A DNA stretch of 64,000 bases, taken from positions 6,561-70,560 of the forward strand of contig JBNGBT010000007.1 in the NCBI GenBank assembly GCA_049903315.1, given 5' to 3'. Source of the DNA: Candidatus Cloacimonadota bacterium (lineage in GTDB: Bacteria; Cloacimonadota; Cloacimonadia; JGIOTU-2). The notes under the pieces were generated by a model. That model did no database searches and had not been told where the DNA came from. It saw only the letters and a list, made by a program, of their open reading frames with translations. How positions within the stretch are numbered: the first letter of the stretch is position 1; every line of letters begins with the position of its first letter. Both the position numbers and the translations under genes were made by a program. This document shows, in pieces, positions 13,545-53,017 of this stretch.

Positions 13545-13618
13545 TGGCTGGGGTGCAGGGATTCGAACCCCAATAGGCAGATCCAGAGTCTGCTGTCTTG
13601 CCATTAGACGACACCCCA
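13545..13618 (-). tRNA. tRNA-Gln (anticodon CUG)
   Basis: Reverse complement TGGGGTGTCGTCTAATGGCAAGACAGCAGACTCTGGATCTGCCTATTGGGGTTCGAATCCCTGCACCCCAGCCA; 7-bp acceptor with U1-A72, anticodon stem GCAGA/TCTGC, loop CTCTGGA, T-loop TTCGAAT, encoded CCA. Confidence 0.8.
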
Positions 13619-13630
13619 TGGTTAAAAAGT

Positions 13631-13705
13631 GGCTGGGTCGGGAGGATTCGAACCTCCGAATGCAGGGACCAAAACCCTGTGCCTTGCCGCTTGGCGACGA
13701 CCCAC
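13631..13705 (-). tRNA. tRNA-Gln (anticodon UUG)
   Basis: Reverse complement TGGGTCGTCGCCAAGCGGCAAGGCACAGGGTTTTGGTCCCTGCATTCGGAGGTTCGAATCCTCCCGACCCAGCCA; closely resembles bacterial tRNA-Gln; loop TTTTGGT gives anticodon TTG. Confidence 0.85.
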
Positions 13706-13717
13706 ATTTCTATAAAT

Positions 13718-13809
13718 GGCGGAGAGGCAGGGATTCGAACCCTGGGTAAGATGTTACTCCTACACACGCTTAGCAGGCGCGCACCTTAAGCCAACTCGGT
13801 CACCTCTCC
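13718..13809 (-). tRNA. tRNA-Ser (anticodon GCU)
   Basis: Reverse complement GGAGAGGTGACCGAGTTGGCTTAAGGTGCGCGCCTGCTAAGCGTG...GGTTCGAATCCCTGCCTCTCCGCCA; class II tRNA with a long variable arm; anticodon loop CTGCTAA. Confidence 0.85.
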
Positions 13810-13822
13810 AAAAAGAACAAAA

Positions 13823-13908
13823 TGGCGGAGGATGAGGGACTCGAACCCCCAAGGGCAGAGCCCGGCGGTTTTCAAGACCGCTGCCTTACCAATTAGGACT
13901 AATCCTCC
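13823..13908 (-). tRNA. tRNA-Ser (anticodon UGA)
   Basis: Reverse complement GGAGGATTAGTCCTAATTGGTAAGGCAGCGGTCTTGAAAACCGCCGGGCTCTGCCCTTGGGGGTTCGAGTCCCTCATCCTCCGCCA; anticodon stem GCGGT/ACCGC, loop CTTGAAA, long variable arm. Confidence 0.85.
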
Positions 13909-43628: not shown

Positions 43629-45980
43629 TTATGGTGAGGTTAGTTTCACTATCTTCCTCACAACCGCAGTATCTTCAAACTCAAGTGAACAAAAATACAC
43701 TCCTGGTGCAGTGATGTTCCCATCCATATCCTTGCCATACCACACTATTTCATTTATTGCCCAGAAATGCTCATCTGGTCCGTAAAACCTTCGTACAAGC
43801 TGTCCTCGAGAATTGTAGATTGAAACCTGGTATTCTCTCACTCTGTCATAATCCAATGATGTAAAAGAAATTGTTGTTTGATCTTTGAAAGGATTTGGGG
43901 TGTTCTTAAAGAAATACAGGTTATTTACCACATTCGTATCTGGATCTACACTGTATCCCTGCCATTCCAGAGCTCCCATGTCGATTCTTCCTCCATAAAT
44001 ACGAGGATTTCCTGCAACATCCACCCAGGGAAGATGCAATCCGGTTGTATCCGGTGTGCCTGCATCGATACAGGGAGAAGTGCTCGATAAATAATAAGGA
44101 TAATCTCCCGTACCTGTAAACTGTGGATAATCATCGATATTTCCGTCCAGCCAGTTTACGATATTAGCATTGTGCTCATTCCAAACACCATCTTCTCCAT
44201 TTTTAATATCATTGTATTGAAGATTGAGTGTTGATATGATCCCATAATTGGATAAATCCCACACAAATATCTCAGCAGGTGTATTGTCGTTCCACATAAT
44301 ATTATTAGATATCTCGACATTTCCTCCTACAGTTAAAGCTGCTCTTTGTGCCTCATTCCCAGAAAAAGTATTATTGGTGATGAAAACATCTCCCATTGGA
44401 TCGGTCGATGAACACGACATAATAGACACCGACGGTGTTGAATTATTAGAAATAACTGAATTTCTTACTTCTAATGTAGGATTGCAGAATTGGTCATAAC
44501 TGAGTATAAACAAAGTAATATCTGCATTATTATTACTATTATTATCGAAAATACAATTTTTTATTTTTCCATATTCATGTGCATTTATCTTTAAGATAAA
44601 TGAAAAAACACCATGCGAATAGTTATTCGAAAAAACACAATTTTCTATCTTCGCATTATATTTCCAATGTAATATACTATTTACCCAATTGGTTTGAATA
44701 TTATTAAACAACAAATTTTTATATAATACTGAATCAGAGTAATTTATATAAAAAATGCTTCCATTTTCGCATATTATATCATTAAACTTTAAATTCTCAA
44801 ACTTATAATTTTTATTTTTTCCCTTTGAGGAATAAATTACATTATTGATAGTACATTCTGCCCAAAAAGTAAAATTTATAATACTTATATTTTTTTTCAT
44901 ATTTGTAGAAAAGACCGTTGTCGAAAAAAAATCATCGTCATGTATAATCTTCGTATCGATATTCTCACCAATGAGTGATGTATTGCTTTTCATAGATATC
45001 GGAAATAACTGGTCATTAATAATTTTTGAATAAATCCCTTCTGCCACATGAACCACCTTCGGACTTAAGCTGTCATTTGCAATTCGATAGGTCGCCAATG
45101 CAATAGTTTTTAAAGGATCATCTGGTGACAATCCGCTGTTATTGTCATCACCGTCTGGGGCAACATACAAATCGTGGTTTATCTCTTCCATCCATACGTT
45201 TTGAATATCAAATAAAAATTCACCCGAATATCCATAATTACAAATGTATTCTGCAAAATATCCATCTGGATTAAATACAGTAAATGTATCTACAAAAACA
45301 TGCACTTTACATGAATCATACGCATACATATCCTGTCCTAAACCAGCATGATTATTATAGAAATTGCATAAGTTATTAGGATCAAAAATAGGTTTAGCAG
45401 AAAAATCAAATATTCCCCCCCCAACGTTTGCATAATTTTGCCTCATTGTTACGCCAGATAAATAGATTGGAAATATGTTGTGAGGAACACCGCCAGCAAA
45501 TATCCCACCTCCTTCACATGCAATATTTTCTTTTATTATACAATTAATTACATTCAGTTCAGTATCATCCGCATACCAATTTGATACCAGTATACCCCCT
45601 CCTCTTGAGAAATATATTGGCCATACTGTTCCTTTACCATTAGTAATAGTAAATCCTTGTATTACTGCATTCTCATTGTTTAATACTGTTACACAACTCC
45701 CTGATCGGTCTCCATCGATTATTGTCGAATCAATAAATACCTTATTTCTAGTTGTGAGTTCTAAACTCGCTAATGTAATACTATGCCCGTTAAAATTTAC
45801 ATTCTCGATATATCTCCCGGGATATACTAAAACAACATCTCCATCTACAGAATTGTCTATTCCATCCTGAATAGTTAAATAATCCCCTGTACCGTCAATA
45901 TCGACGGTTATTGTATCTGAATATATATCTGAGAGTATAAGAATTATAAGTAATATTTGTAGTAATATTATTTTTTTCAT
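43629..45980 (-). CDS. Right-handed beta-helix repeat protein with T9SS C-terminal sorting domain, 783 aa
   Basis: Signal peptide; many NxxGGGI-type beta-helix repeats; PCIDAGTPDTTGLHLP...RIDMGALEWQG; C-terminal CTD (TPNPFKDQTTISF...GVYFCSL). Confidence 0.75.
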   Translation of the reverse strand: MKKIILLQILLIILILSDIYSDTITVDIDGTGDYLTIQDGIDNSVDGDVVLVYPGRYIENVNFNGHSITLASLELTTRNKVFIDSTIIDGDRSGSCVTVLNNENAVIQGFTITNGKGTVWPIYFSRGGGILVSNWYADDTELNVINCIIKENIACEGGGIFAGGVPHNIFPIYLSGVTMRQNYANVGGGIFDFSAKPIFDPNNLCNFYNNHAGLGQDMYAYDSCKVHVFVDTFTVFNPDGYFAEYICNYGYSGEFLFDIQNVWMEEINHDLYVAPDGDDNNSGLSPDDPLKTIALATYRIANDSLSPKVVHVAEGIYSKIINDQLFPISMKSNTSLIGENIDTKIIHDDDFFSTTVFSTNMKKNISIINFTFWAECTINNVIYSSKGKNKNYKFENLKFNDIICENGSIFYINYSDSVLYKNLLFNNIQTNWVNSILHWKYNAKIENCVFSNNYSHGVFSFILKINAHEYGKIKNCIFDNNSNNNADITLFILSYDQFCNPTLEVRNSVISNNSTPSVSIMSCSSTDPMGDVFITNNTFSGNEAQRAALTVGGNVEISNNIMWNDNTPAEIFVWDLSNYGIISTLNLQYNDIKNGEDGVWNEHNANIVNWLDGNIDDYPQFTGTGDYPYYLSSTSPCIDAGTPDTTGLHLPWVDVAGNPRIYGGRIDMGALEWQGYSVDPDTNVVNNLYFFKNTPNPFKDQTTISFTSLDYDRVREYQVSIYNSRGQLVRRFYGPDEHFWAINEIVWYGKDMDGNITAPGVYFCSLEFEDTAVVRKIVKLTSP

Positions 45981-46037
45981 TACGATCCTTTTTTATAAAG
46001 GGTGCACCACACAAGTGATGCACCCTCACTGTTTGTG

Positions 46038-48785
46038 CTATCTCATCAACAGCAGCTTTTTAACAATATCTTTTTCGGAAGTAGATAATTTGTAGAAATA
46101 TACTCCATTTGGTACGAGTTTTCCCTGTTCGTCTGTTCCATTCCATGTAACTGAATGAATTCCGCTTGATTGCTCGCCATCCTTAAGTGAGGTAACGTAT
46201 TGACCTTTACAGTTATAGATCGATAGATTAATCTTGACCTGATCCGGTAATGAATACTTTATCGTAACGTTATTACATACGGGATTGGGAAAATTCATAA
46301 TTTTGTAATCAGGGGGAGTAAATGAATGTTCTCCATTTGTAAGAGAAACCATATAATAATCTTTTACTCCGTCTATATGAACAGTTCCTTGATGTAACTC
46401 CATTGAGACCGGATCGTAGGTGTAGTAATCCACTACTTTTATATTTCCTGCTTTACCACCATAATACATTTCGAATGTCATATCTCCTGAAGTGCCGTCA
46501 TTCATGTATGCACGGATATCCATCTCATCATTGGTTACAATTTCCGCTCCCTTGCATACATCATCTATATATACCGCTACTTCAAGAGGTAGCTCTTCAG
46601 GATCGAGTTCAACGTAGATGGGTATATAGTCCGCTTTCTCTTCAAAATCGAAATTCTGTGCTTTTCCTCTCTCTTCAGGAGGTTCGCCTCCACCCGTATA
46701 ACTCCATACAAAATCTTCATCTTCAAAGCATTTTACTACAACACAATCTCCATAATTCAGAACTCTTCTATCTTGAGGTCTCACCCAGGGGCTTTCCGGT
46801 TCAGGTTCTTCTCTCTGGTATGTCCAATTTTGCGTCTGTATGAAGTACATATTATCTATTGAGTTCTCAAAAGCGTCATTGACATCCTGTGTTTCGTCGA
46901 TGAAATACCCGATCCAATTTTCGAGATTGTCTGCCACTAAAGGTATTTCAGTATCAGGATCTGCCAGAAATCCGGGCACATCGATCGTGACTGGCTCTTC
47001 ATTCAGCATCTTGAATTTGTAACCCTGTCTGCTGGTGAAAATATGTTCTTTATTTTCCCAATCTCCCTGATAATAATAAATCATATTTAAATCCTCAGGA
47101 TCTCCAACGGTTCGCCAAAAACAGGTATCAAGATTTGTTTGAGCAGGATTTATTATATCATACAATAAATATTGAGCCATATCCCCAACATAATCTTTTG
47201 CATCGGTCAGTGTGTCGAGTACAGGATAACACATCCACCGCCATTCATAGCCATATATTGGCAGATCCCAATCATTCCATTGGTGTGTAATTGCAGGAAG
47301 AGCGCCCATGTCAGAGGGGGTTCCATCGGTATCGTTGTATAAGGAATCAGGATTGCCGGTATCTATGCACGGAGAAAAACCGTTCACATCCCATTTCAAT
47401 GAATAGTCACTACTGTCTGGTTTGTTGAATTTAGGATTCACTTCTAGACATCCATCACCTTCAATAACTCCAGAATAGTTATTAGAATCATTTCCATGGG
47501 AATTACAATATATTACTTCAATTTGCGTTTCACTTACAATTCCCGTTTCATTATTAGCTACAATATTATTAAAGATAATATCATTATTATTCCCAGAAGT
47601 TGAGCAAATATAAATTCCAGATTCATTTTCATTATTCACTATTGTGTTGTTTATTACTTCAATATCAGTAACATTATAACCTAAACAAATAGCACCACCA
47701 TCATCTCCTGAACCATCCATAATAATATTATTACTAATTACTACTTCATCGCATTCTACTCCAATGGCACTTGCATAAGAAAAAGTAGATGATCCGGCTC
47801 CCATTGTATTACCAATAAATTCATTTCCTATTATTTCTGCTCCTTCATACCATCTAATTGTTACAGCTCCACCAGTTTCCGATGAGTTATCTTCAAATAG
47901 ATTGCTGTGAATGTATCCACCATCTAATATTGCTCCGCTATAACCTCCCCAATCTATTTCATCATCTACTGCAGTAGATGAACATCGTCTTACTGTGTTA
48001 CACTCGATTGACGAACCACCGTATATTCCAGCACCTCCCCAACCTTCTGTTTCACAATCTTCTATAGTATTTTCATACACAATGGCTTGAACTGCATATA
48101 TCCCCCCACCTTCATTGGCAGAACAATCAGAAATTGTATTATAGCTTATGGTCATATCCTCATGTGTAGCCCAAATACCGCCACCTTTCCCAAAGTAATT
48201 ATTTTGGGTTGATGTGCAATGCTCGATAGTGTTGTGTGAAATTAATCCGGGGGAATCGATTGATATACCTCCTCCATTGCGATATTGTTCAGTACAATAA
48301 CAACTATCAATATCATTATATGTGATAAGACAGTAATCGCAGTCATTGATAAATATACCGTGACTATTACAGTTTTTTATTACATTATTATAAATCAATA
48401 AACCTGAACTTTCTGTACATAATATTCCAATATTAAAGTTATTTAAAGTAAAACCAATTATCTTATCCTGAGGATATTCAGTCTCAGCTTCATCTAGATC
48501 AAAAGCAGTTTCGGTTCCGGTACCTTGTATTATACAACTATCAGCTCCATTCTGAGATGTAACTGTAATATTTTTCTCTGTTCCATCCCAGTATAGGTTT
48601 ATGTTATTAGCACCAGTATATATTCCGTCCTTAACAAGAACGATGTCACCATCATCTGCTGCATTTATACCAGCTTGTATTGTGAGATAATCTCCACCGC
48701 CATTGCAATCTACTACTATTGTATCAGTAAATCCTAATGCTGATATTAACAGTATAAATACTGCTATCACAATTATTTTTTTCAT
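46038..48785 (-). CDS. Right-handed beta-helix repeat protein with T9SS C-terminal sorting domain, ~915 aa
   Basis: ATG at 48785 preceded by AGGAGA; signal peptide; beta-helix repeats; C-terminal CTD (FPNPVCNNVTIKY...GVYFYKL). Confidence 0.75.
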   Translation of the reverse strand: MKKIIVIAVFILLISALGFTDTIVVDCNGGGDYLTIQAGINAADDGDIVLVKDGIYTGANNINLYWDGTEKNITVTSQNGADSCIIQGTGTETAFDLDEAETEYPQDKIIGFTLNNFNIGILCTESSGLLIYNNVIKNCNSHGIFINDCDYCLITYNDIDSCYCTEQYRNGGGISIDSPGLISHNTIEHCTSTQNNYFGKGGGIWATHEDMTISYNTISDCSANEGGGIYAVQAIVYENTIEDCETEGWGGAGIYGGSSIECNTVRRCSSTAVDDEIDWGGYSGAILDGGYIHSNLFEDNSSETGGAVTIRWYEGAEIIGNEFIGNTMGAGSSTFSYASAIGVECDEVVISNNIIMDGSGDDGGAICLGYNVTDIEVINNTIVNNENESGIYICSTSGNNNDIIFNNIVANNETGIVSETQIEVIYCNSHGNDSNNYSGVIEGDGCLEVNPKFNKPDSSDYSLKWDVNGFSPCIDTGNPDSLYNDTDGTPSDMGALPAITHQWNDWDLPIYGYEWRWMCYPVLDTLTDAKDYVGDMAQYLLYDIINPAQTNLDTCFWRTVGDPEDLNMIYYYQGDWENKEHIFTSRQGYKFKMLNEEPVTIDVPGFLADPDTEIPLVADNLENWIGYFIDETQDVNDAFENSIDNMYFIQTQNWTYQREEPEPESPWVRPQDRRVLNYGDCVVVKCFEDEDFVWSYTGGGEPPEERGKAQNFDFEEKADYIPIYVELDPEELPLEVAVYIDDVCKGAEIVTNDEMDIRAYMNDGTSGDMTFEMYYGGKAGNIKVVDYYTYDPVSMELHQGTVHIDGVKDYYMVSLTNGEHSFTPPDYKIMNFPNPVCNNVTIKYSLPDQVKINLSIYNCKGQYVTSLKDGEQSSGIHSVTWNGTDEQGKLVPNGVYFYKLSTSEKDIVKKLLLMR

Positions 48786-49053
48786 TATTCTCCTTATTTT
48801 CTGTGAACACATTAACTCTCAAAAGAGAAGCCCATAATTATTATCCCTAACATCATAATCAGCCCAGTCTGCGAAAGCAACTCTCATATTCCGATAACCT
48901 CACTATTCCCGGGAAACGGAATAGTAAGGTAGGAATTAAGGAATTTATTTTTCCCGAGAATTGATAATGTTGTATTTGTGTTGTATTTTGCCTTATTAAA
49001 ATATGCCAAATTGTAGTAACTTGCATAATATATGTCAGTTACTAAATTCAAAT

Positions 49054-49063
49054 GGGGGGGGGG
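49054..49063. repeat. G10 homopolymer tract in the divergent intergenic region
   Basis: Ten consecutive G in an otherwise AT-rich intergenic region between the 46038-48785 gene (minus) and purL (plus). Confidence 0.9.
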
Positions 49064-49261
49064 TAAGTCCTCCCAAAATATTCTTCCAATTTTCTTTCGT
49101 TGCCATCATATTTTTTCCTTTGGATTGAATTGTTGAAAATAATTTATAGGTGTCAAATTTTTTGGAAAAATTCACTTCTCATCAGTTTTCTTGACGAGTA
49201 AAAGGCTACTAAATTTTTAGTGAATATAGCGTTTTATGCTAATAATAGCTGCTGAGGATAC

Positions 49262-51484
49262 ATGAATCTGGAAATCACAGATAAACTCGTAAAAGAACAT
49301 GGTCTTTCAAAAGAAGAGCACACACGCATCCTATCGATTTTAGGACGAGATCCCACAATAACTGAACTCGGAATTTTCTCTGTTATGTGGTCTGAACACG
49401 CCAGTTACAAGAATTCAATTCTACAACTGAAAACTCTTCCGCGATCCGGTGAGTGTCTTCTTAAAGATGCAGGTGAAGAGAATGCCGGTGTGGTCGATAT
49501 TGGAGACGGGCTTGCCGTTGCGTTCAAGATCGAGAGTCATAATCATCCTTCTGCACTGGAGCCATACCAGGGTGCAGCAACGGGAGTTGGAGGTATTCTC
49601 AGGGATGTTTTTACCATGGGTGCGCGTCCAATTGCATCGTTGAATTCACTTCGCTTCGGTTCGCTGGATAATCCTCATGTAAAGCATCTTCTCAAAGGTG
49701 TGGTAAAAGGTATTGCAGATTATGGCAACTGCATGGGCATTCCAACGGTTGCCGGAGAAATTTATTTCGACGACAGCTATGAAGGAAATCCGCTTGTAAA
49801 TGCGATGACAGTCGGGACTATCAAGCATGAACATATTGCGACAGCTGCTGCGTACGGTGTGGGAAATTACGTCCTGTATGTCGGATCATCAACAGGAAGA
49901 GACGGCATTCATGGCGCAACGTTTGCATCGGTCGAACTGACTGAGGAATCTGCAGAAAAGCGAACTTCCGTGCAGGTAGGGGATCCGTTCATGGAAAAAC
50001 TTCTCCTCGAAGCCACCCTCGATGTGATCAAGCAAAACCTCGTTGTGGGCATACAGGATATGGGAGCTGCCGGATTGACCTGTTCGTCATCGGAAATGGC
50101 TGCCAAAGCAGGAACCGGAGTGGATATCGATGTCTCACTCGTGCCCAAAAGAGAAAAGGGAATGACACCTTATGAGATCATGCTCTCGGAATCACAGGAG
50201 CGCATGCTGTTGGTTATCGAACCTCAAAACTTCAAGAAAGTTCAAGAAATATATGAGAAATGGGATCTGCATGTCGTGAAGATCGGCGAAGTGACTGAGA
50301 ATGGAAATCTGCGTGTGCGCGAAAATGGCATTATTGTTGCTGATATACCAGCCCAAACACTTGTACTCGGTGGTGAAGCTCCGGTTTATAACCGAGAAGT
50401 GCAATATCCATCATATCTGGATTCTCTCCATTCCTTTGATCAAGCAAAAATCAAGGAACCATCGGATTATAACGAAGTTTTAAAACGACTTATTTCATCA
50501 CCGAATATTGCAAGCAAAAATTATGTTTACACACAGTACGATCATATGGTGAGGATAAATTCAGTGATCGAACCTGGTTCAGATGCGGCAGTTGTAAGAA
50601 TAAAAGTTACAAACAAAGCACTTGCAATGACCACAGATTGCAATGGAAAATATTGTTATCTCGATCCTTATGAAGGAACAAAGGGAGCTGTTGCAGAAGC
50701 AGCACGGAATATTGTATGCTCAGGTGGAAAACCTCTTGCCATTACGAATTGCCTGAATTTTGGAAACCCCTATAAAAAGGATGTTTATTGGTATTTTTCA
50801 GAATGTATCCGCGGCATGGGGGATGCATGCAGATTTTTCAAAACGCCGGTAACAGGTGGTAATGTCAGTTTCTACAATGAAACTGTGAAGAGCGCCGTGT
50901 ATCCAACACCGGTTATTGGCATGATCGGACTTCTTGATGATGTAAAATACGCGACATCTCAATATTTTAAGGATACGGGAGATGTGATCTTTCTCTTGGG
51001 AAAATCCTGTGATATTATTAGCGGATCAGAATATCTGGAAGTTGAGCATCATATGATCGTCGGACATGCACCTAAAGTAGATTTCGAATTGGAACAAAAA
51101 ATCCAGGATATTTGTTATGAAGCTATTCGAGAAGGAATCGTAAAATCTGCGCATGATTGTTCTGAAGGTGGACTTGCAGTTGCTTTAGCCGAATCCTGTT
51201 TTAATCCGGATGGATTACTTGGAGCTCATATCAATATGGAATTCGTGAATCGCACCGATTTCGGACTTTTTGGCGAATCTCACTCGCGAATTATCGTGTC
51301 TGTCGAAGAAAAAGATATTCCTTCCTTTGTTCGAATAATTAAAAAACATGATGCTCCTTATAAACTCCTAGGAAAAGTTACTGATAAGAAATTTCAAATA
51401 AATGACCTTATATCGTCTGATACCAATGAGTTATATGAGCTATGGCACAATGCCATTCGACTAAAAATGGAGTCAGTTACATGA
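49262..51484 (+). CDS. purL: Phosphoribosylformylglycinamidine synthase subunit PurL
   Basis: 740 aa; AIR-synthase-related tandem domains ([35 protein letters not shown]); TGA stop. Confidence 0.93.
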
Positions 51485-52320
51485 TACCTTTTCCGGAAAT
51501 AAATCCATCACTCGCAACCATTCCCGAATTCTCGGTTTGGTCTCTTACCATCGGACCTTTCGAAATACGATGGTATGCGCTTATGTACCTAATTTCATTT
51601 GCTATTGGCTATTTCCTTTTGAGAAAACTCTACAAGAAACGGGATATTCACATCAAAAGAACTGATTTTGAAAACCTTTTTTTCTACCTTATGCTCGGAG
51701 TCATTATTGGAGGCAGACTTGGTTATATGCTTTTCTACAATTTCCAGGAAATATTTCGACATCCTCTTGAAATCTTTGCTGTGTGGCATGGGGGGATGTC
51801 ATTCCATGGAGGATTGATCGCAGCAATAATTTTCGGGTACTTATTTTGCAGAAAATATCATTATGATTTTTATAAATTAGCTGATCCAACCGTCGTAGTC
51901 GCACCGATCGGGCTTGCGCTTGGAAGACTTGGAAATTTCATCAATGGAGAGCTTTACGGAAGAGCGACCAGTCTTCCGTGGGGTATGCTTTTCCCCGGAG
52001 AAGAGGTTCCGCGACATCCTTCTCAACTCTATGAATTATCCCTTGAAGGCATTTTACTTTTCATCATATTATTTATATTGATTAAAAAGAATGTACGAAA
52101 AGGATTTGTATTCTGGAGCTTCATCTTTTTGTATGGATTATTTAGATTCCTGGTGGAATTTGTTCGCGAACCGGATGCACACCTCGGGCATCTCATTGGC
52201 TTCATGACAATGGGGCAGATTCTGAGTTCACTCATGATGATCGCGGGAATAATCGGCTATATCTCTATTTTTAGGAAAAAACAGGTGCCTGTTATACAAG
52301 AGGATCAAAACAATGAATAA
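51481..52320 (+). CDS. lgt: Prolipoprotein diacylglyceryl transferase
   Basis: [35 protein letters not shown]; start overlaps the purL stop (ATGA). Confidence 0.88.
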
Positions 52321-53017
52321 AGTCATTACAGGAGTAGCTGTTATATTTTTTCTTGTTGGCTGCAGTTCCGTGAAATCAGGCAGATACAGCACATTTGAAA
52401 TTCAAAATAAGATCATTGAAAACCTGAATTATTTAAAGGAATGCAAAGCTGAAGGTTTAGCAAATATCAACTATGAGGGTTTTGAAATAAAGACAAATTT
52501 CCTATTGCGGAAAAAGGATTCAAATGTGAGAGTAGATGTCTTCTCAGGTGGTATTTTAGGTCTTTCACCAGCTCCCAAAGCCCAGATCGTTCTTCAGAAT
52601 AATTTCGTGAATGTGTTTATTCCTGACCAGAAACGGCTTACCATAACCCGCTTAATTCCAGTAGATTCGCTTCTTAATGTGCAAAGCATTGCTGCCAGTC
52701 ATGATGTCGTTGAGAATTTCGGATATTACATGACCTCCCCTTTCAATGGAGTGTATTACATCTTTGATAAAAAATTTCATCTTGAAGTTGTGCAGATTCG
52801 TGAAATTCGTATCCAGTTCTCAAACTATAAAAAAAATCTTCCATATCACATCACAGTGCTTCAGGATAAAATCGAAATAATCTCGCTTGAGATTGATAAA
52901 TGGGATTTTTCTCATTATCCGGATAGCATCTTTGATTTCGAAGTGCCTAAAGATGTTCAGATCGAAGCAAATGAGATCGATCTGACTATACCGATAGAAG
53001 TAATAGAAGACGAATAG
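52313..53017 (+). CDS. Hypothetical lipoprotein
   Basis: Lipobox LVGCSS; no family recognised with confidence. Confidence 0.45.
   Translation: MNKVITGVAVIFFLVGCSSVKSGRYSTFEIQNKIIENLNYLKECKAEGLANINYEGFEIKTNFLLRKKDSNVRVDVFSGGILGLSPAPKAQIVLQNNFVNVFIPDQKRLTITRLIPVDSLLNVQSIAASHDVVENFGYYMTSPFNGVYYIFDKKFHLEVVQIREIRIQFSNYKKNLPYHITVLQDKIEIISLEIDKWDFSHYPDSIFDFEVPKDVQIEANEIDLTIPIEVIEDE

What the first reader, a model, noticed from the sequence alone, without database searches (positions are those of the whole stretch)
49054..49063. G10 homopolymer in the divergent promoter region of a T9SS beta-helix gene and purL
A run of ten G in an AT-rich intergenic region, about 270 nt upstream of the 46038-48785 surface protein gene and about 200 nt upstream of purL. 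Such tracts are classic slipped-strand phase-variation switches for surface proteins, but are also error-prone in sequencing.
Basis: partly seen in the sequence, partly recalled or inferred. Interest (0 to 1): 0.42.

Follow-up and report, generated by a model that had tools for sequence, protein, structure and literature searches.

The report
Hypervariable poly-C tract in leader ORF
The run of ten G (ten C on the other strand) is real and sits not in a promoter but inside a small, conserved upstream reading frame that precedes secreted surface-protein genes in an uncultivated Cloacimonadota bacterium; its length differs between related copies and shifts that frame, so it looks like a slipped-strand on/off switch of an unusual design.

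Summary
The G10 run at 49054-49063 is real. It is the only G/C run longer than 8 in the window, about 0.01 are expected by chance, and four independent assemblies show the same run.

It is not in a promoter. On the minus strand it is a C10 tract that starts 46 nt into a small leader ORF (ATG 49109). That ORF has its own invariant TTGACA promoter and ribosome-binding site. It lies at the head of an operon of two type IX secretion (T9SS) cargo genes.

The roughly 400-nt leader module recurs in at least 12 other distinct loci from related Cloacimonadota. It always precedes signal-peptide genes, mostly T9SS cargo, and two copies occur in one MAG.

Module geometry is fixed. All frame-changing length variation sits at the tract, which is C6 to C11, or CCTTCTCCC in one tract-less copy. 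Two contigs that are 99.93% identical differ by a single indel, and it is in the tract.

- In-frame copies give a 74-codon ORF.
- The window (C10) is +1 out of frame and gives a 24-aa peptide.
- The long frame stays open in all copies but one, yet pN/pS is about 1.

Best reading: a slipped-strand phase switch acting through translation of a leader ORF. This is a new variant of a known kind. The effect on cargo expression is inferred, not shown. purL is not involved.

The parts
49151..49156 (-). -35 hexamer TTGACA of the leader/T9SS operon promoter
   Evidence: Promoter scan. TTGACA is present in all 12 module copies whose sequences were read, while the spacer sequence varies.
49129..49134 (-). 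-10-like hexamer AACAAT, 16 nt after the -35
   Evidence: The other copies have AT-rich hexamers (ATTAAT, ATAAAT and similar) 16-18 nt after TTGACA. The transcription start is inferred, not mapped.
49116..49121 (-). Ribosome-binding site AAAGGA of the leader ORF
   Evidence: A purine-rich AAGG/AGGA ribosome-binding motif lies a few nt upstream of the ATG in the copies read.
49035..49109 (-). Leader ORF as it stands with C10: MMATKENWKNILGGLTPPPFEFSN*, 24 aa, stop TGA at 49037-49035
   Evidence: The same 24-25 aa product is found in L094, L096, L095 and L092.
49054..49063 (-). Poly-C tract (G10 on the + strand). It starts at nt 47 of the leader ORF, in codons 16-19.
48884..49051 (-). Continuation of the leader ORF in the long frame. 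It is reached only with C9 or C12, giving 74 codons in total, with stop TGA at 48886-48884.
   Evidence: The frame is open in all copies but one. The exception is L102-L105, which has a premature TAG that cuts the product to 58 aa. The other five frames carry 1-8 stops in the seven copies counted. In-frame 74-aa homologues are P0005, P0006, P0011 and P0012. Lengths are fixed outside the tract.
49014..49044 (-). Hairpin 2, directly after the tract. It contains the stop codon of the 24-aa frame.
   Evidence: Inverted repeat I9. Fold energy -10.1 kcal/mol, z = -4.75. Predicted in the consensus fold.
48897..48930 (-). Hairpin 3 (13-14 bp), near the 3' end of the long frame. It is the most conserved block of the module.
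   Evidence: Inverted repeat I11. Fold energy -20.1 kcal/mol, z = -4.24. Kept through G-U changes, and through a 1-nt deletion in L090. Assemblies break here.
48786..48883 (-). Conserved untranslated spacer with the Shine-Dalgarno sequence AAGGAGA (48795-48789) of the cargo gene
46038..48785 (-). T9SS cargo gene 1 (915 aa: signal peptide, beta-helix, C-terminal sorting domain)
   Evidence: The start at 48785 is fixed by the conserved SD and ATGAAAAAA in most copies (L100 and L102 start differently).
43629..45980 (-). T9SS cargo gene 2 (783 aa), 57 nt downstream of gene 1 on the same strand

Best explanation
The tract is a hypermutable poly-C run inside a translated leader ORF. That ORF opens an operon of two T9SS cargo genes in a Cloacimonadota genome.

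Proposed mechanism:
- Transcription starts from a conserved TTGACA promoter, divergent from purL.
- Ribosomes load at a conserved ribosome-binding site and ATG (49109) and meet the tract 46 nt later.
- Slipped-strand mispairing during replication changes the tract length, and that sets the reading frame.

The three frame states for this locus:
- C9 or C12: the ribosome reads a 74-codon frame through two strong hairpins and stops about 100 nt before the cargo gene.
- C10 (the state in this window): a 24-aa peptide ends inside hairpin 2.
- C11: a 20-aa peptide.

Whether ribosomes traverse the leader is proposed to decide whether the downstream cargo genes are expressed. Possible routes are polarity, or unfolding of the hairpins and the Shine-Dalgarno region.

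Because the same module heads several different cargo operons per genome, independent switching would give combinatorial variation of surface proteins.

Shown here: the tract, its position in the ORF, its length polymorphism across copies, the frame consequences, and the conserved module.

Inferred: that the ORF is translated, that switching is frequent and reversible, and that it controls cargo expression.
For: **The tract is real and far above chance**.

**The leader is a conserved module.**
- It comprises TTGACA, a 16-18 nt spacer, an AT-rich -10, a purine-rich ribosome-binding site, ATG, the tract at +47, hairpin 2, hairpin 3, a stop, and in most copies a spacer ending in SD AAGGAGAA before the downstream gene.
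- It is found at 12 further distinct loci: L088, L089/L095, L090/L091, L092/L093, L094, L096, L097-L099, L100/L101, L102-L105, L106, L107, plus remnants in L046/L010.
- Every downstream gene starts with a signal peptide. Por_Secre_tail/FlgD_ig sorting domains were found where a complete downstream gene was scanned, but not in L090/L107.

**Length variation is confined to the tract.**
- Tract lengths are 6, 7, 8, 9, 9, 9, 9, 10, 10, 10, 11 and 11.
- ATG-to-tract is 46 nt in all tract-bearing copies (47 in L102, whose tract is preceded by an extra T), and CTCGG-to-stop is 75 nt wherever the canonical stop is used. All frame-changing length variation among tract-bearing copies is at the tract.
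- L089 and L095 are 99.93% identical over 4125 nt, and the only indel is C11 versus C10.

**Both frame states exist.**
- In frame: L088, L097, L100, L102, L106, L107 and L090.
- Out of frame: window, L094, L096, L092, L089 and L095.
- L106 (in frame) and L089/L095 (out of frame) head orthologous cargo genes.

**The long frame is kept open.**
- All copies are open except one with a late stop. The other five frames carry 1-8 stops in the seven copies counted.
- P(open) is about 0.01 from composition, and 0.10-0.36 per lineage given the observed substitution sites.
- Four independent members have exactly 74 aa.

**The homopolymer itself appears selected, not proline coding.** CCC makes up only 17% of Pro codons, and no PPP occurs in 17.7k codons of the window.

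**The module is multicopy in one MAG.** L100 and L106 both come from GCA_977971115.1. Assemblies also break in its conserved blocks.

**The leader is 81-85% nt identical where cargo proteins are only 29-31% identical**.
Against: - **No variation at this locus.** The window and four other assemblies all have G10. Four other multi-sample loci are also invariant.
- **The near-clonal pair is not an on/off pair.** L089 and L095 differ between two out-of-frame states.
- **The peptide is not conserved.** pN/pS of the long frame is 0.97, no lower than in the two other frames at 0.89 and 0.80. Conservation could lie at the RNA or DNA level, with the open frame partly inherited among related copies.
- **Out-of-frame alleles dominate the unbiased sample.** All five DNA-pattern hits (four distinct loci) and the window are out of frame, and most fall in the same +1 frame. 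This could equally mean that the 24-aa form is the functional default.
- **No experimental data.** There is no evidence on transcription start, translation or cargo expression.
- **Weak structural predictions.** The anti-SD pairing is a 6-bp helix with almost no covariation (a single pair), and the whole leader does not fold better than shuffles, z = -0.87.
Confidence: 0.5

Rival explanations
1. The conserved leader works as an RNA or DNA element, through hairpins 2 and 3 and the conserved blocks. The poly-C run is then just a mutation-prone stretch in it with no switching role, and the 74-codon open frame is a by-product.
For: - pN/pS is about 1 in all three frames.
- Hairpin 3 survives a 1-nt deletion that changes the reading frame in L090 and L107.
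- Hairpins 2 and 3 are strongly non-random.
- Out-of-frame alleles dominate the unbiased DNA sample.
Against: - Stop-codon avoidance holds in the long frame across divergent copies.
- Four members have exactly 74 aa.
- There are no frame-breaking indels outside the tract among tract-bearing copies.
- A ribosome-binding site and ATG are conserved.
- The run stays uninterrupted in most copies despite 15-30% divergence around it.
Confidence: 0.2
2. The functional product is the 24-aa peptide. Its three prolines (TPPP) stall the ribosome, making a regulatory arrest or attenuation leader that senses EF-P or proline supply. This would resemble known proline-rich leader peptides. The homopolymer is then a side effect of proline coding.
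For: - Five of six out-of-frame alleles give the same 24-25 aa frame, ending F-x-F-S/C-N-stop.
- The change in L088 (E to D in that frame) and the changes in L092 (F to W, S to C) look conservative.
- The stop codon sits in hairpin 2.
Against: - All prolines use CCC, which makes up 17% of Pro codons. There are no synonymous interruptions in most copies.
- Several copies are in the long frame with only PP.
- The tract-less copies L090 and L046 read PSP in the long frame.
- Length varies by single nucleotides.
Confidence: 0.1
3. RNA polymerase slippage or ribosomal frameshifting on the C run produces the 74-aa product from 'out-of-frame' templates. On this view the DNA length matters little.
For: Most alleles are exactly +1 (226 versus 225 nt). 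This pattern is seen in programmed frameshift genes. The run is long enough for slippage.
Against: - In-frame alleles with C6-C9 exist.
- From general knowledge, bacterial transcriptional slippage is best documented on A/T runs.
- There is no stimulatory signature beyond a hairpin.
Confidence: 0.08
4. The tract tunes a promoter, either for the T9SS gene (an internal CTGACA-17-TACAAT at 49038-49010 lies just downstream of it) or for purL, by changing spacing or an upstream element.
For: A 10/12 promoter-like match lies 16 nt downstream of the tract on the minus strand.
Against: - That match is not conserved in L088 or L092.
- The tract is not between a -35 and a -10.
- The purL promoter block is conserved in relatives without the module, and lies about 130 nt away.
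Confidence: 0.05
5. Sequencing or assembly artefact at a homopolymer.
For: G/C homopolymers are error-prone. The L089/L095 difference is a single base.
Against: Five assemblies of this locus give the same G10. Tracts occur at the same position in at least 11 other loci from different projects.
Confidence: 0.02

Closest known systems
Homopolymer/SSR contingency loci within the 5' coding region of surface-protein genes. Examples are Neisseria opa and pilC and Campylobacter poly-G genes (from general knowledge), and the L. monocytogenes inlA poly-A tract (PMC2831843).
   Same: An uninterrupted repeat near the 5' end of an ORF. Length changes shift the frame. The repeat is linked to surface proteins, and a multigene family shares a conserved 5' region.
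   Different: Here the tract is not in the surface-protein gene. It lies in a separate 74-codon leader ORF that ends about 100 nt upstream of the cargo gene. The peptide itself shows no amino-acid conservation signal (pN/pS about 1).
SSRs transcribed in a 5' UTR. Examples are the H. influenzae hmw1A heptamer repeats, which pair with a G-rich region (PMC12721329), and the M. catarrhalis uspA1 poly-G (from memory).
   Same: The repeat lies between the promoter and the regulated gene and is transcribed. A G-rich stretch (GGGAGG) lies 5 nt upstream and is predicted to pair with the tract.
   Different: Here the repeat is inside a translated frame with a ribosome-binding site and ATG, and the G-rich/poly-C hairpin is not better than shuffles. 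RNase III processing was not tested.
Promoter-spacer homopolymer switches. Examples are Bordetella fim poly-C, Neisseria porA and opc, and T. pallidum tpr poly-G (from general knowledge; Bordetella tracts in PMC1891110).
   Same: A G/C homopolymer of 8-15 nt upstream of surface-protein genes. A conserved upstream region is shared by a gene family.
   Different: The tract is downstream of the conserved -35 and -10, not between or just upstream of them.
Regulatory leader peptides: attenuation or arrest peptides, and proline-rich leaders (from general knowledge).
   Same: A short ORF at the 5' end of the operon, followed by hairpins and a long spacer before the structural genes. Consecutive Pro codons are present.
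   Different: No terminator with a U-run is present. The length-variable homopolymer, and the coexistence of 20-, 24- and 74-codon forms, are not features of those systems.

Membership tests
Slipped-strand (SSR/homopolymer) phase-variable contingency locus | Uninterrupted simple repeat much longer than expected by chance | tested here: met
   G10 is the only G/C run longer than 8 in 64 kb. Shuffles give a mean of 0.08 matches for a G9 pattern. There is no G/C run of 6 or more in 64.8 kb of related loci.
Slipped-strand (SSR/homopolymer) phase-variable contingency locus | Repeat length differs among closely related strains or gene copies while flanks stay fixed | tested here: met
   C6-C11 across homologous modules with fixed geometry. 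L089 versus L095: 99.93% identity, with the only indel in the tract.
Slipped-strand (SSR/homopolymer) phase-variable contingency locus | Length heterogeneity at this very locus, within or between populations | tested here: not met
   The window and four Logan assemblies all have G10. These are consensus sequences only. Read-level heterogeneity could not be tested.
Slipped-strand (SSR/homopolymer) phase-variable contingency locus | Length change alters expression, by reading frame or promoter geometry | tested here: inconclusive
   The frame of the leader ORF changes among 24-aa, 20-aa and 74-aa products. The effect on the cargo genes is inferred only.
Slipped-strand (SSR/homopolymer) phase-variable contingency locus | High-frequency, reversible switching in a clonal population | not testable with these tools
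   This needs reads or cultures.
Slipped-strand (SSR/homopolymer) phase-variable contingency locus | Association with surface-exposed or secreted products | tested here: met
   Por_Secre_tail, FlgD_ig and beta-helix cargo lie downstream in the window and in L088, L089, L094, L100 and L102.
Promoter-spacer homopolymer switch | Tract between the -35 and -10, or directly abutting the -35, of the regulated promoter | tested here: not met
   The conserved TTGACA/-10 pair lies at 49156-49129. The tract is 66 nt downstream of the -10 and 46 nt inside the ORF.
Intragenic tract in the structural surface-protein gene | Tract within the coding sequence of the regulated protein | tested here: not met
   The tract is 269 nt upstream of the cargo ATG, in a separate ORF.
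5'-UTR SSR with structured RNA partner (hmw type) | Repeat pairs with a G-rich arm in a stable 5'-UTR hairpin | tested here: inconclusive
   The consensus fold pairs GGGAGG with the tract, with one compensatory change. The energy is only -7 to -8 kcal/mol, z -0.7 to -1.3.
Polyproline or arrest leader peptide | Conserved short peptide whose amino-acid sequence, not its nucleotides, is selected | tested here: inconclusive
   The 24-aa frame recurs in 5 of 6 out-of-frame alleles. However, all Pro codons are CCC, against 17% usage, and the frame varies between copies.
Any Rfam RNA family | Match at or above the gathering score | tested here: not met
   No hit in the intergenic region at gathering score, and only chance-level hits at E up to 10.
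Known protein family for the leader ORF product | Pfam match | tested here: not met
   No Pfam family for P0003, P0004 or the frame-corrected window product. Precomputed Pfam is '-' for all members.

The most novel reading that the evidence does not exclude
A clade of free-living, uncultivated Cloacimonadota carries a multi-locus switch system. A conserved, recombining roughly 400-nt leader module heads many divergent T9SS cargo operons. A poly-C tract in its 74-codon leader ORF stochastically decides whether ribosomes traverse the leader. The act of translation, not the peptide, gates the downstream surface-protein genes by melting conserved hairpins or preventing polarity. This gives combinatorial surface variation outside any host-pathogen setting.
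Probability: 0.35. Interest if true: 0.75.

Novelty: new variant of a known kind. Interest (0 to 1): 0.6.

Why it matters
Homopolymer phase variation is textbook for host-adapted pathogens. It is hardly documented for environmental, uncultivated phyla. Full-text searches found no paper linking Cloacimonadota with phase variation, or homopolymeric tracts with type IX secretion.

If the model holds, it would matter in three ways:
- Sediment and brine anaerobes would be diversifying their T9SS-secreted surface proteins by bet-hedging, plausibly against phages, grazers or changing substrates.
- It would add a design in which the switch sits in a translated leader ORF shared by a gene family, rather than in the promoter or in the structural gene.
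- It is directly testable in existing metagenomes, because tract-length spectra at a dozen defined loci can be read from raw reads.

The module also has a practical consequence. It is a repeat that breaks assemblies at T9SS cargo loci in these genomes.

Tried and rejected
- **Rfam scans.** The whole window at gathering score, and the intergenic region at E up to 10, gave nothing relevant.
- **tRNA/tmRNA scan.** Only a distant tRNA cluster was found.
- **First metagenome scan.** A pattern with the exact 20-mer flanks and a variable tract found 0 hits, because relatives differ in the flanks.
- **Intrinsic terminator reading.** The scan flags TGGGGGGGGGGTAAGTCCTCCCA as terminator-like on the + strand. 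It has no proper U-run, nothing upstream on that strand needs terminating, and the G-rich/C-rich pairing is no better than shuffles. I rejected this reading.
- **Invertible promoter idea,** raised by contig breaks inside the region. No long flanking inverted repeats were found, and the breaks coincide with the most conserved blocks of a multicopy module. I rejected it in favour of repeat-induced breaks.
- **The L046 91-aa ORF as the true homologue.** It is a deletion chimera that fuses the leader-ORF start to the distal leader.
- **Other copies in the window.** None were found.
- **Protein-level selection on the leader ORF.** pN/pS is 0.97, so it is not supported.
- **Global RNA structure of the leader.** z = -0.87, so it is not supported.
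- **Search for an in-frame (C9/C12) allele of the window's own locus.** None was found in the 5.8-billion-protein set. The word-based search is not exhaustive.

Full report
**1. Observation**

Positions 49054-49063 are ten consecutive G on the + strand.
- It is the only G or C run longer than 8 in the 64-kb window (GC 37.6%).
- Run-length counts fall off steeply: G5 occurs 18 times, G6 once, and then G10 once.
- A G9 pattern matches only here, against a mean of 0.08 matches in 100 dinucleotide-preserving shuffles.
- Base composition predicts about 0.006 G/C runs of 10 or more in the window.
- Eight related loci totalling 64.8 kb have no G/C run of 6 or more.

Four independent Logan assemblies that encode an identical PurL all read G10. 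The run is therefore real and not a one-off assembly error.

- 46038-48785 (minus strand) is a 915-aa protein with Beta_helix, NosD, FlgD_ig and Por_Secre_tail matches.
- A second, 783-aa T9SS-tail protein follows at 43629-45980.
- purL is at 49262-51484 (plus strand), followed by lgt, an unknown ORF and purB.

PurL relatives place the organism in Candidatus Cloacimonadota. The best match is 91% to 'Ca. Cloacimonas sp. 4484_140', with 82-87% to other marine, vent and brine MAGs. From the literature, T9SS may also be present in this phylum (PMC11285876).

**2. Where the tract really sits**

Relatives in which corA lies directly next to purL (L008, L009, L013) share with the window only the purL-proximal block, starting at CAGTTTTCTTGACG (window 49184 onward). 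That block is the purL promoter and leader. It lies about 130 nt from the tract and does not need it.

Two closer relatives (L046, L010) share more sequence, and the shared part reads on the minus strand. It consists of:
- a TTGACA/-10 pair (window 49156-49129, also found by the promoter scan);
- a ribosome-binding site AAAGGA;
- an ATG (49109);
- about 28 codons.

In the window this small ORF reads MMATKENWKNILGGLTPPPFEFSN*. The tract is C10 at nt 47-56 of it. At the same place L046 and L010 read CCTTCTCCC and CCTTCTCAC.

**3. A recurrent leader module**

I searched proteins with the small ORF in both frames, and then looked up the contigs that encode the hits. I also ran a DNA pattern scan of JGI metagenomes, a full HMMER search and a second word-based search. 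Together these recovered the same roughly 400-nt module at these loci:
- L088
- L089/L095
- L090/L091
- L092/L093
- L094
- L096
- L097-L099
- L100/L101
- L102-L105
- L106
- L107

The order of elements is constant:
- TTGACA, always present
- a 16-18 nt variable spacer
- an AT-rich -10
- a purine-rich ribosome-binding site and ATG
- the tract at +47
- hairpin 2
- about 30 variable codons
- the block TTCTCGGGAAAAATAAATT
- hairpin 3 (ACTATTCCGTTTCCCGGGAATAGT)
- a stop codon
- a spacer of roughly 100 nt (about 70-130), conserved among the close copies
- a Shine-Dalgarno sequence (AAGGAGAA in most copies) and the ATG of a gene that begins with a signal peptide

The downstream genes are large T9SS cargo proteins, usually two in a row. 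In the L090/L107 subfamily the downstream gene is instead a 221-223 aa protein.

The module is multicopy:
- L100 and L106 are two contigs of one MAG, GCA_977971115.1.
- L094 and L096 come from one metagenome and have unrelated flanks.

Multicopy status also explains why assemblies of the window's own organism break inside the module. The breaks fall exactly at its most conserved blocks (48901-48930, 48953, 48960), and not at the tract. No second copy lies within the window.

**4. The tract is the variable point**

Module geometry is fixed:
- ATG to tract is 46 nt in all tract-bearing copies, except L102 at 47 nt, where a T precedes the run.
- CTCGG to the stop is 75 nt wherever the canonical stop is used.

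All frame-changing length differences among tract-bearing copies fall at the tract or its immediate edge. The tract-less L090 has indels of -1 and -2 that sum to -3, plus a 1-nt deletion in hairpin 3.

| Locus | Tract |
|---|---|
| L107 | C6 |
| L102 | C7 |
| L100 | C8 |
| L097, L106, L092 | C9 |
| L096 | C9 followed by T |
| window, L094 | C10 |
| L095 | CCA-C10-TCC |
| L088 | C11 |
| L089 | CCA-C11-TCC |
| L090 | CCTTCTCCC (no homopolymer) |

L089 and L095 come from different samples and align over 4125 nt. They differ by two substitutions and one indel, and the indel is in the tract. Orthologous cargo genes carry different states: L106 is in frame, while L089 and L095 are out of frame.

Set against this, loci sampled several times mostly show the same length each time. 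This holds for the window (five assemblies), L092/L093, L097-L099, L100/L101 and L102-L105. All of these are consensus sequences, so minority alleles would not be visible.

**5. Frame consequences**

In-frame copies give a 225-nt ORF of 74 aa. These are L097 (P0005), L100 (P0006), L106 (P0012) and L107 (P0011).
- L090 gives 75 aa.
- L088 gives 84 aa, because its usual stop is mutated.
- L102 gives 58 aa, because of an extra stop.

The window, L094, L096 and L092 measure 226 nt, which is +1, and yield 24-aa peptides that end at a stop inside hairpin 2. L095 is also +1 (25 aa) and L089 is +2 (20 aa). For the window, C9 or C12 would restore the 74-codon frame ending at TGA 48886-48884.

Note a sampling bias. 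Copies found through protein searches are in frame by construction. All five hits from the DNA pattern scan (four distinct loci) are out of frame, as is the window.

**6. Is the leader ORF translated?**

For translation:
- A ribosome-binding site and ATG are conserved.
- The long frame has no stop in the seven copies counted, while the other five frames have 1-8 stops. P(open) is about 0.01 from composition.
- With random substitutions placed at the observed variable sites, each lineage would stay open with probability 0.10-0.36. For five roughly independent lineages the product is of order 10^-4 to 10^-3.
- There are no frame-breaking indels outside the tract among tract-bearing copies.
- Four members have identical length.

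Against a conserved protein:
- pN/pS is 0.97 in the long frame, against 0.89 and 0.80 in the other two frames.
- There is no Pfam family.
- The L090/L107 subfamily changes frame within hairpin 3 yet keeps the hairpin.

The simplest reconciliation is that passage of ribosomes matters, and not the peptide itself.

The homopolymer is not explained by proline coding. CCC makes up 17% of Pro codons, and no PPP occurs in 17.7k codons of the window's long ORFs.

**7. RNA features**

- Hairpin 2 (49044-49014) folds at -10.1 kcal/mol, z = -4.75.
- Hairpin 3 (48930-48897) folds at -20.1 kcal/mol, z = -4.24.
- Both hairpins appear in the consensus fold, with only one-sided changes in hairpin 3.
- The pairing of GGGAGG with the tract is predicted but is no better than shuffles.
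- A 6-bp pairing is predicted between UUCUC, inside the long frame, and the cargo Shine-Dalgarno GGAGAA. It shows almost no covariation (a single pair), so it is only a suggestion.
- The leader as a whole is not unusually stable, z = -0.87.
- No Rfam family matches.

**8. Evolutionary pattern**

- The leader is 81-85% nt identical between the window and L088/L089. The cargo proteins behind them are only 29-31% identical.
- Conversely, L106 and L089 share 85-97% identical cargo DNA but only 70-78% identical leaders.
- Leaders and cargo genes therefore have discordant histories. This is expected if module copies recombine.
- Relative to the corA-purL arrangement in L008, L009 and L013, the window carries the module plus two cargo genes as an insertion. 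L046 and L010 keep only a deleted remnant.

**9. Interpretation**

The best-supported reading is a slipped-strand phase switch that acts on the reading frame of a translated leader ORF at the head of T9SS cargo operons. The state in this window is out of frame.

The rivals, with my confidence in each, are:
- a neutral mutation-prone stretch in a structured leader (0.2);
- a polyproline arrest peptide (0.1);
- transcriptional or translational slippage (0.08);
- a promoter effect (0.05);
- an artefact (0.02).

**10. Comparison with known systems**

Known systems place such repeats in promoter spacers, in 5' UTRs (for example hmw, PMC12721329), or in the 5' coding region of the surface-protein gene itself (see PMC2831843 for 5' homopolymers in general). 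A repeat in a separate, family-wide leader ORF is a variant I did not find described. Searches for Cloacimonadota with phase variation, and for homopolymeric tracts with type IX secretion, returned no papers. The library searched is incomplete, so this is not proof of absence.

**11. Verdict**

- This is a new variant of a known kind.
- Interest is 0.6.
- Confidence in the best explanation is 0.5.
- The key missing evidence is read-level tract heterogeneity, and any expression data.

Noticed in passing
window 45415-45422 (C8 on +; G8 in the sense strand of the 783-aa cargo gene 43629-45980); also L088 3671-3679 (G9): The second cargo gene has its own in-frame G8 run (GTT GGG GGG GGA), which encodes the beta-helix 'GGGI' motif. 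The corresponding second gene in L088 has a G9. GGG makes up only 9.6% of Gly codons, so these could be secondary frameshift-prone sites. All observed copies are in frame.
   Followed up: partly
window 48897-48960; L001-L007: Independent assemblies (Logan, NCBI GCA_049903205.1) end inside the intergenic region at 48901/48930, 48953 and 48960. These are the most conserved blocks of the multicopy leader module, and not the homopolymer. The k-1 overlap of 30 nt points to a de Bruijn graph branch at a repeat.
   Followed up: yes
window 43629-49190 versus L008, L009, L013, L046, L010: In several relatives corA lies directly divergent from purL. The window has the leader module plus two T9SS cargo genes inserted there. 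L046 and L010 keep a deleted remnant of the module, which produces a chimeric 91-aa ORF (P0001). The corA-purL junction is a variable spot.
   Followed up: partly
window 49184-49232 (+): The purL upstream block CAGTTTTCTTGACGAGTAAAAGG.ACTAAATTTTTAGTGAATATAGC is almost invariant across species whose PurL is only 82-91% identical. This is more conserved than a plain promoter needs. A regulatory site or leader element for purine genes is possible.
   Followed up: no
L106 versus L089; window versus L089/L088: Leader and cargo similarity are discordant. Near-identical leaders sit in front of cargo proteins that are 29-31% identical, and 70-78% identical leaders sit in front of 85-97% identical cargo DNA. 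This suggests recombination or gene conversion among module copies.
   Followed up: partly
L102-L105 (Logan SRR32816591-SRR32816594): This copy has a C7 tract and is in frame, but it carries a TAG at codon 59, just before hairpin 3. The long frame is therefore truncated to 58 aa in four samples. It is the only copy in which the long frame is interrupted.
   Followed up: no
window 13545-13908 (-): A cluster of four tRNA genes: Gln-CTG, Gln-TTG, Ser-GCT and Ser-TGA.
   Followed up: no
window 52313-53017 (+): A 234-aa ORF between lgt and purB has no Pfam match. It is conserved in position in the Logan contigs.
   Followed up: no
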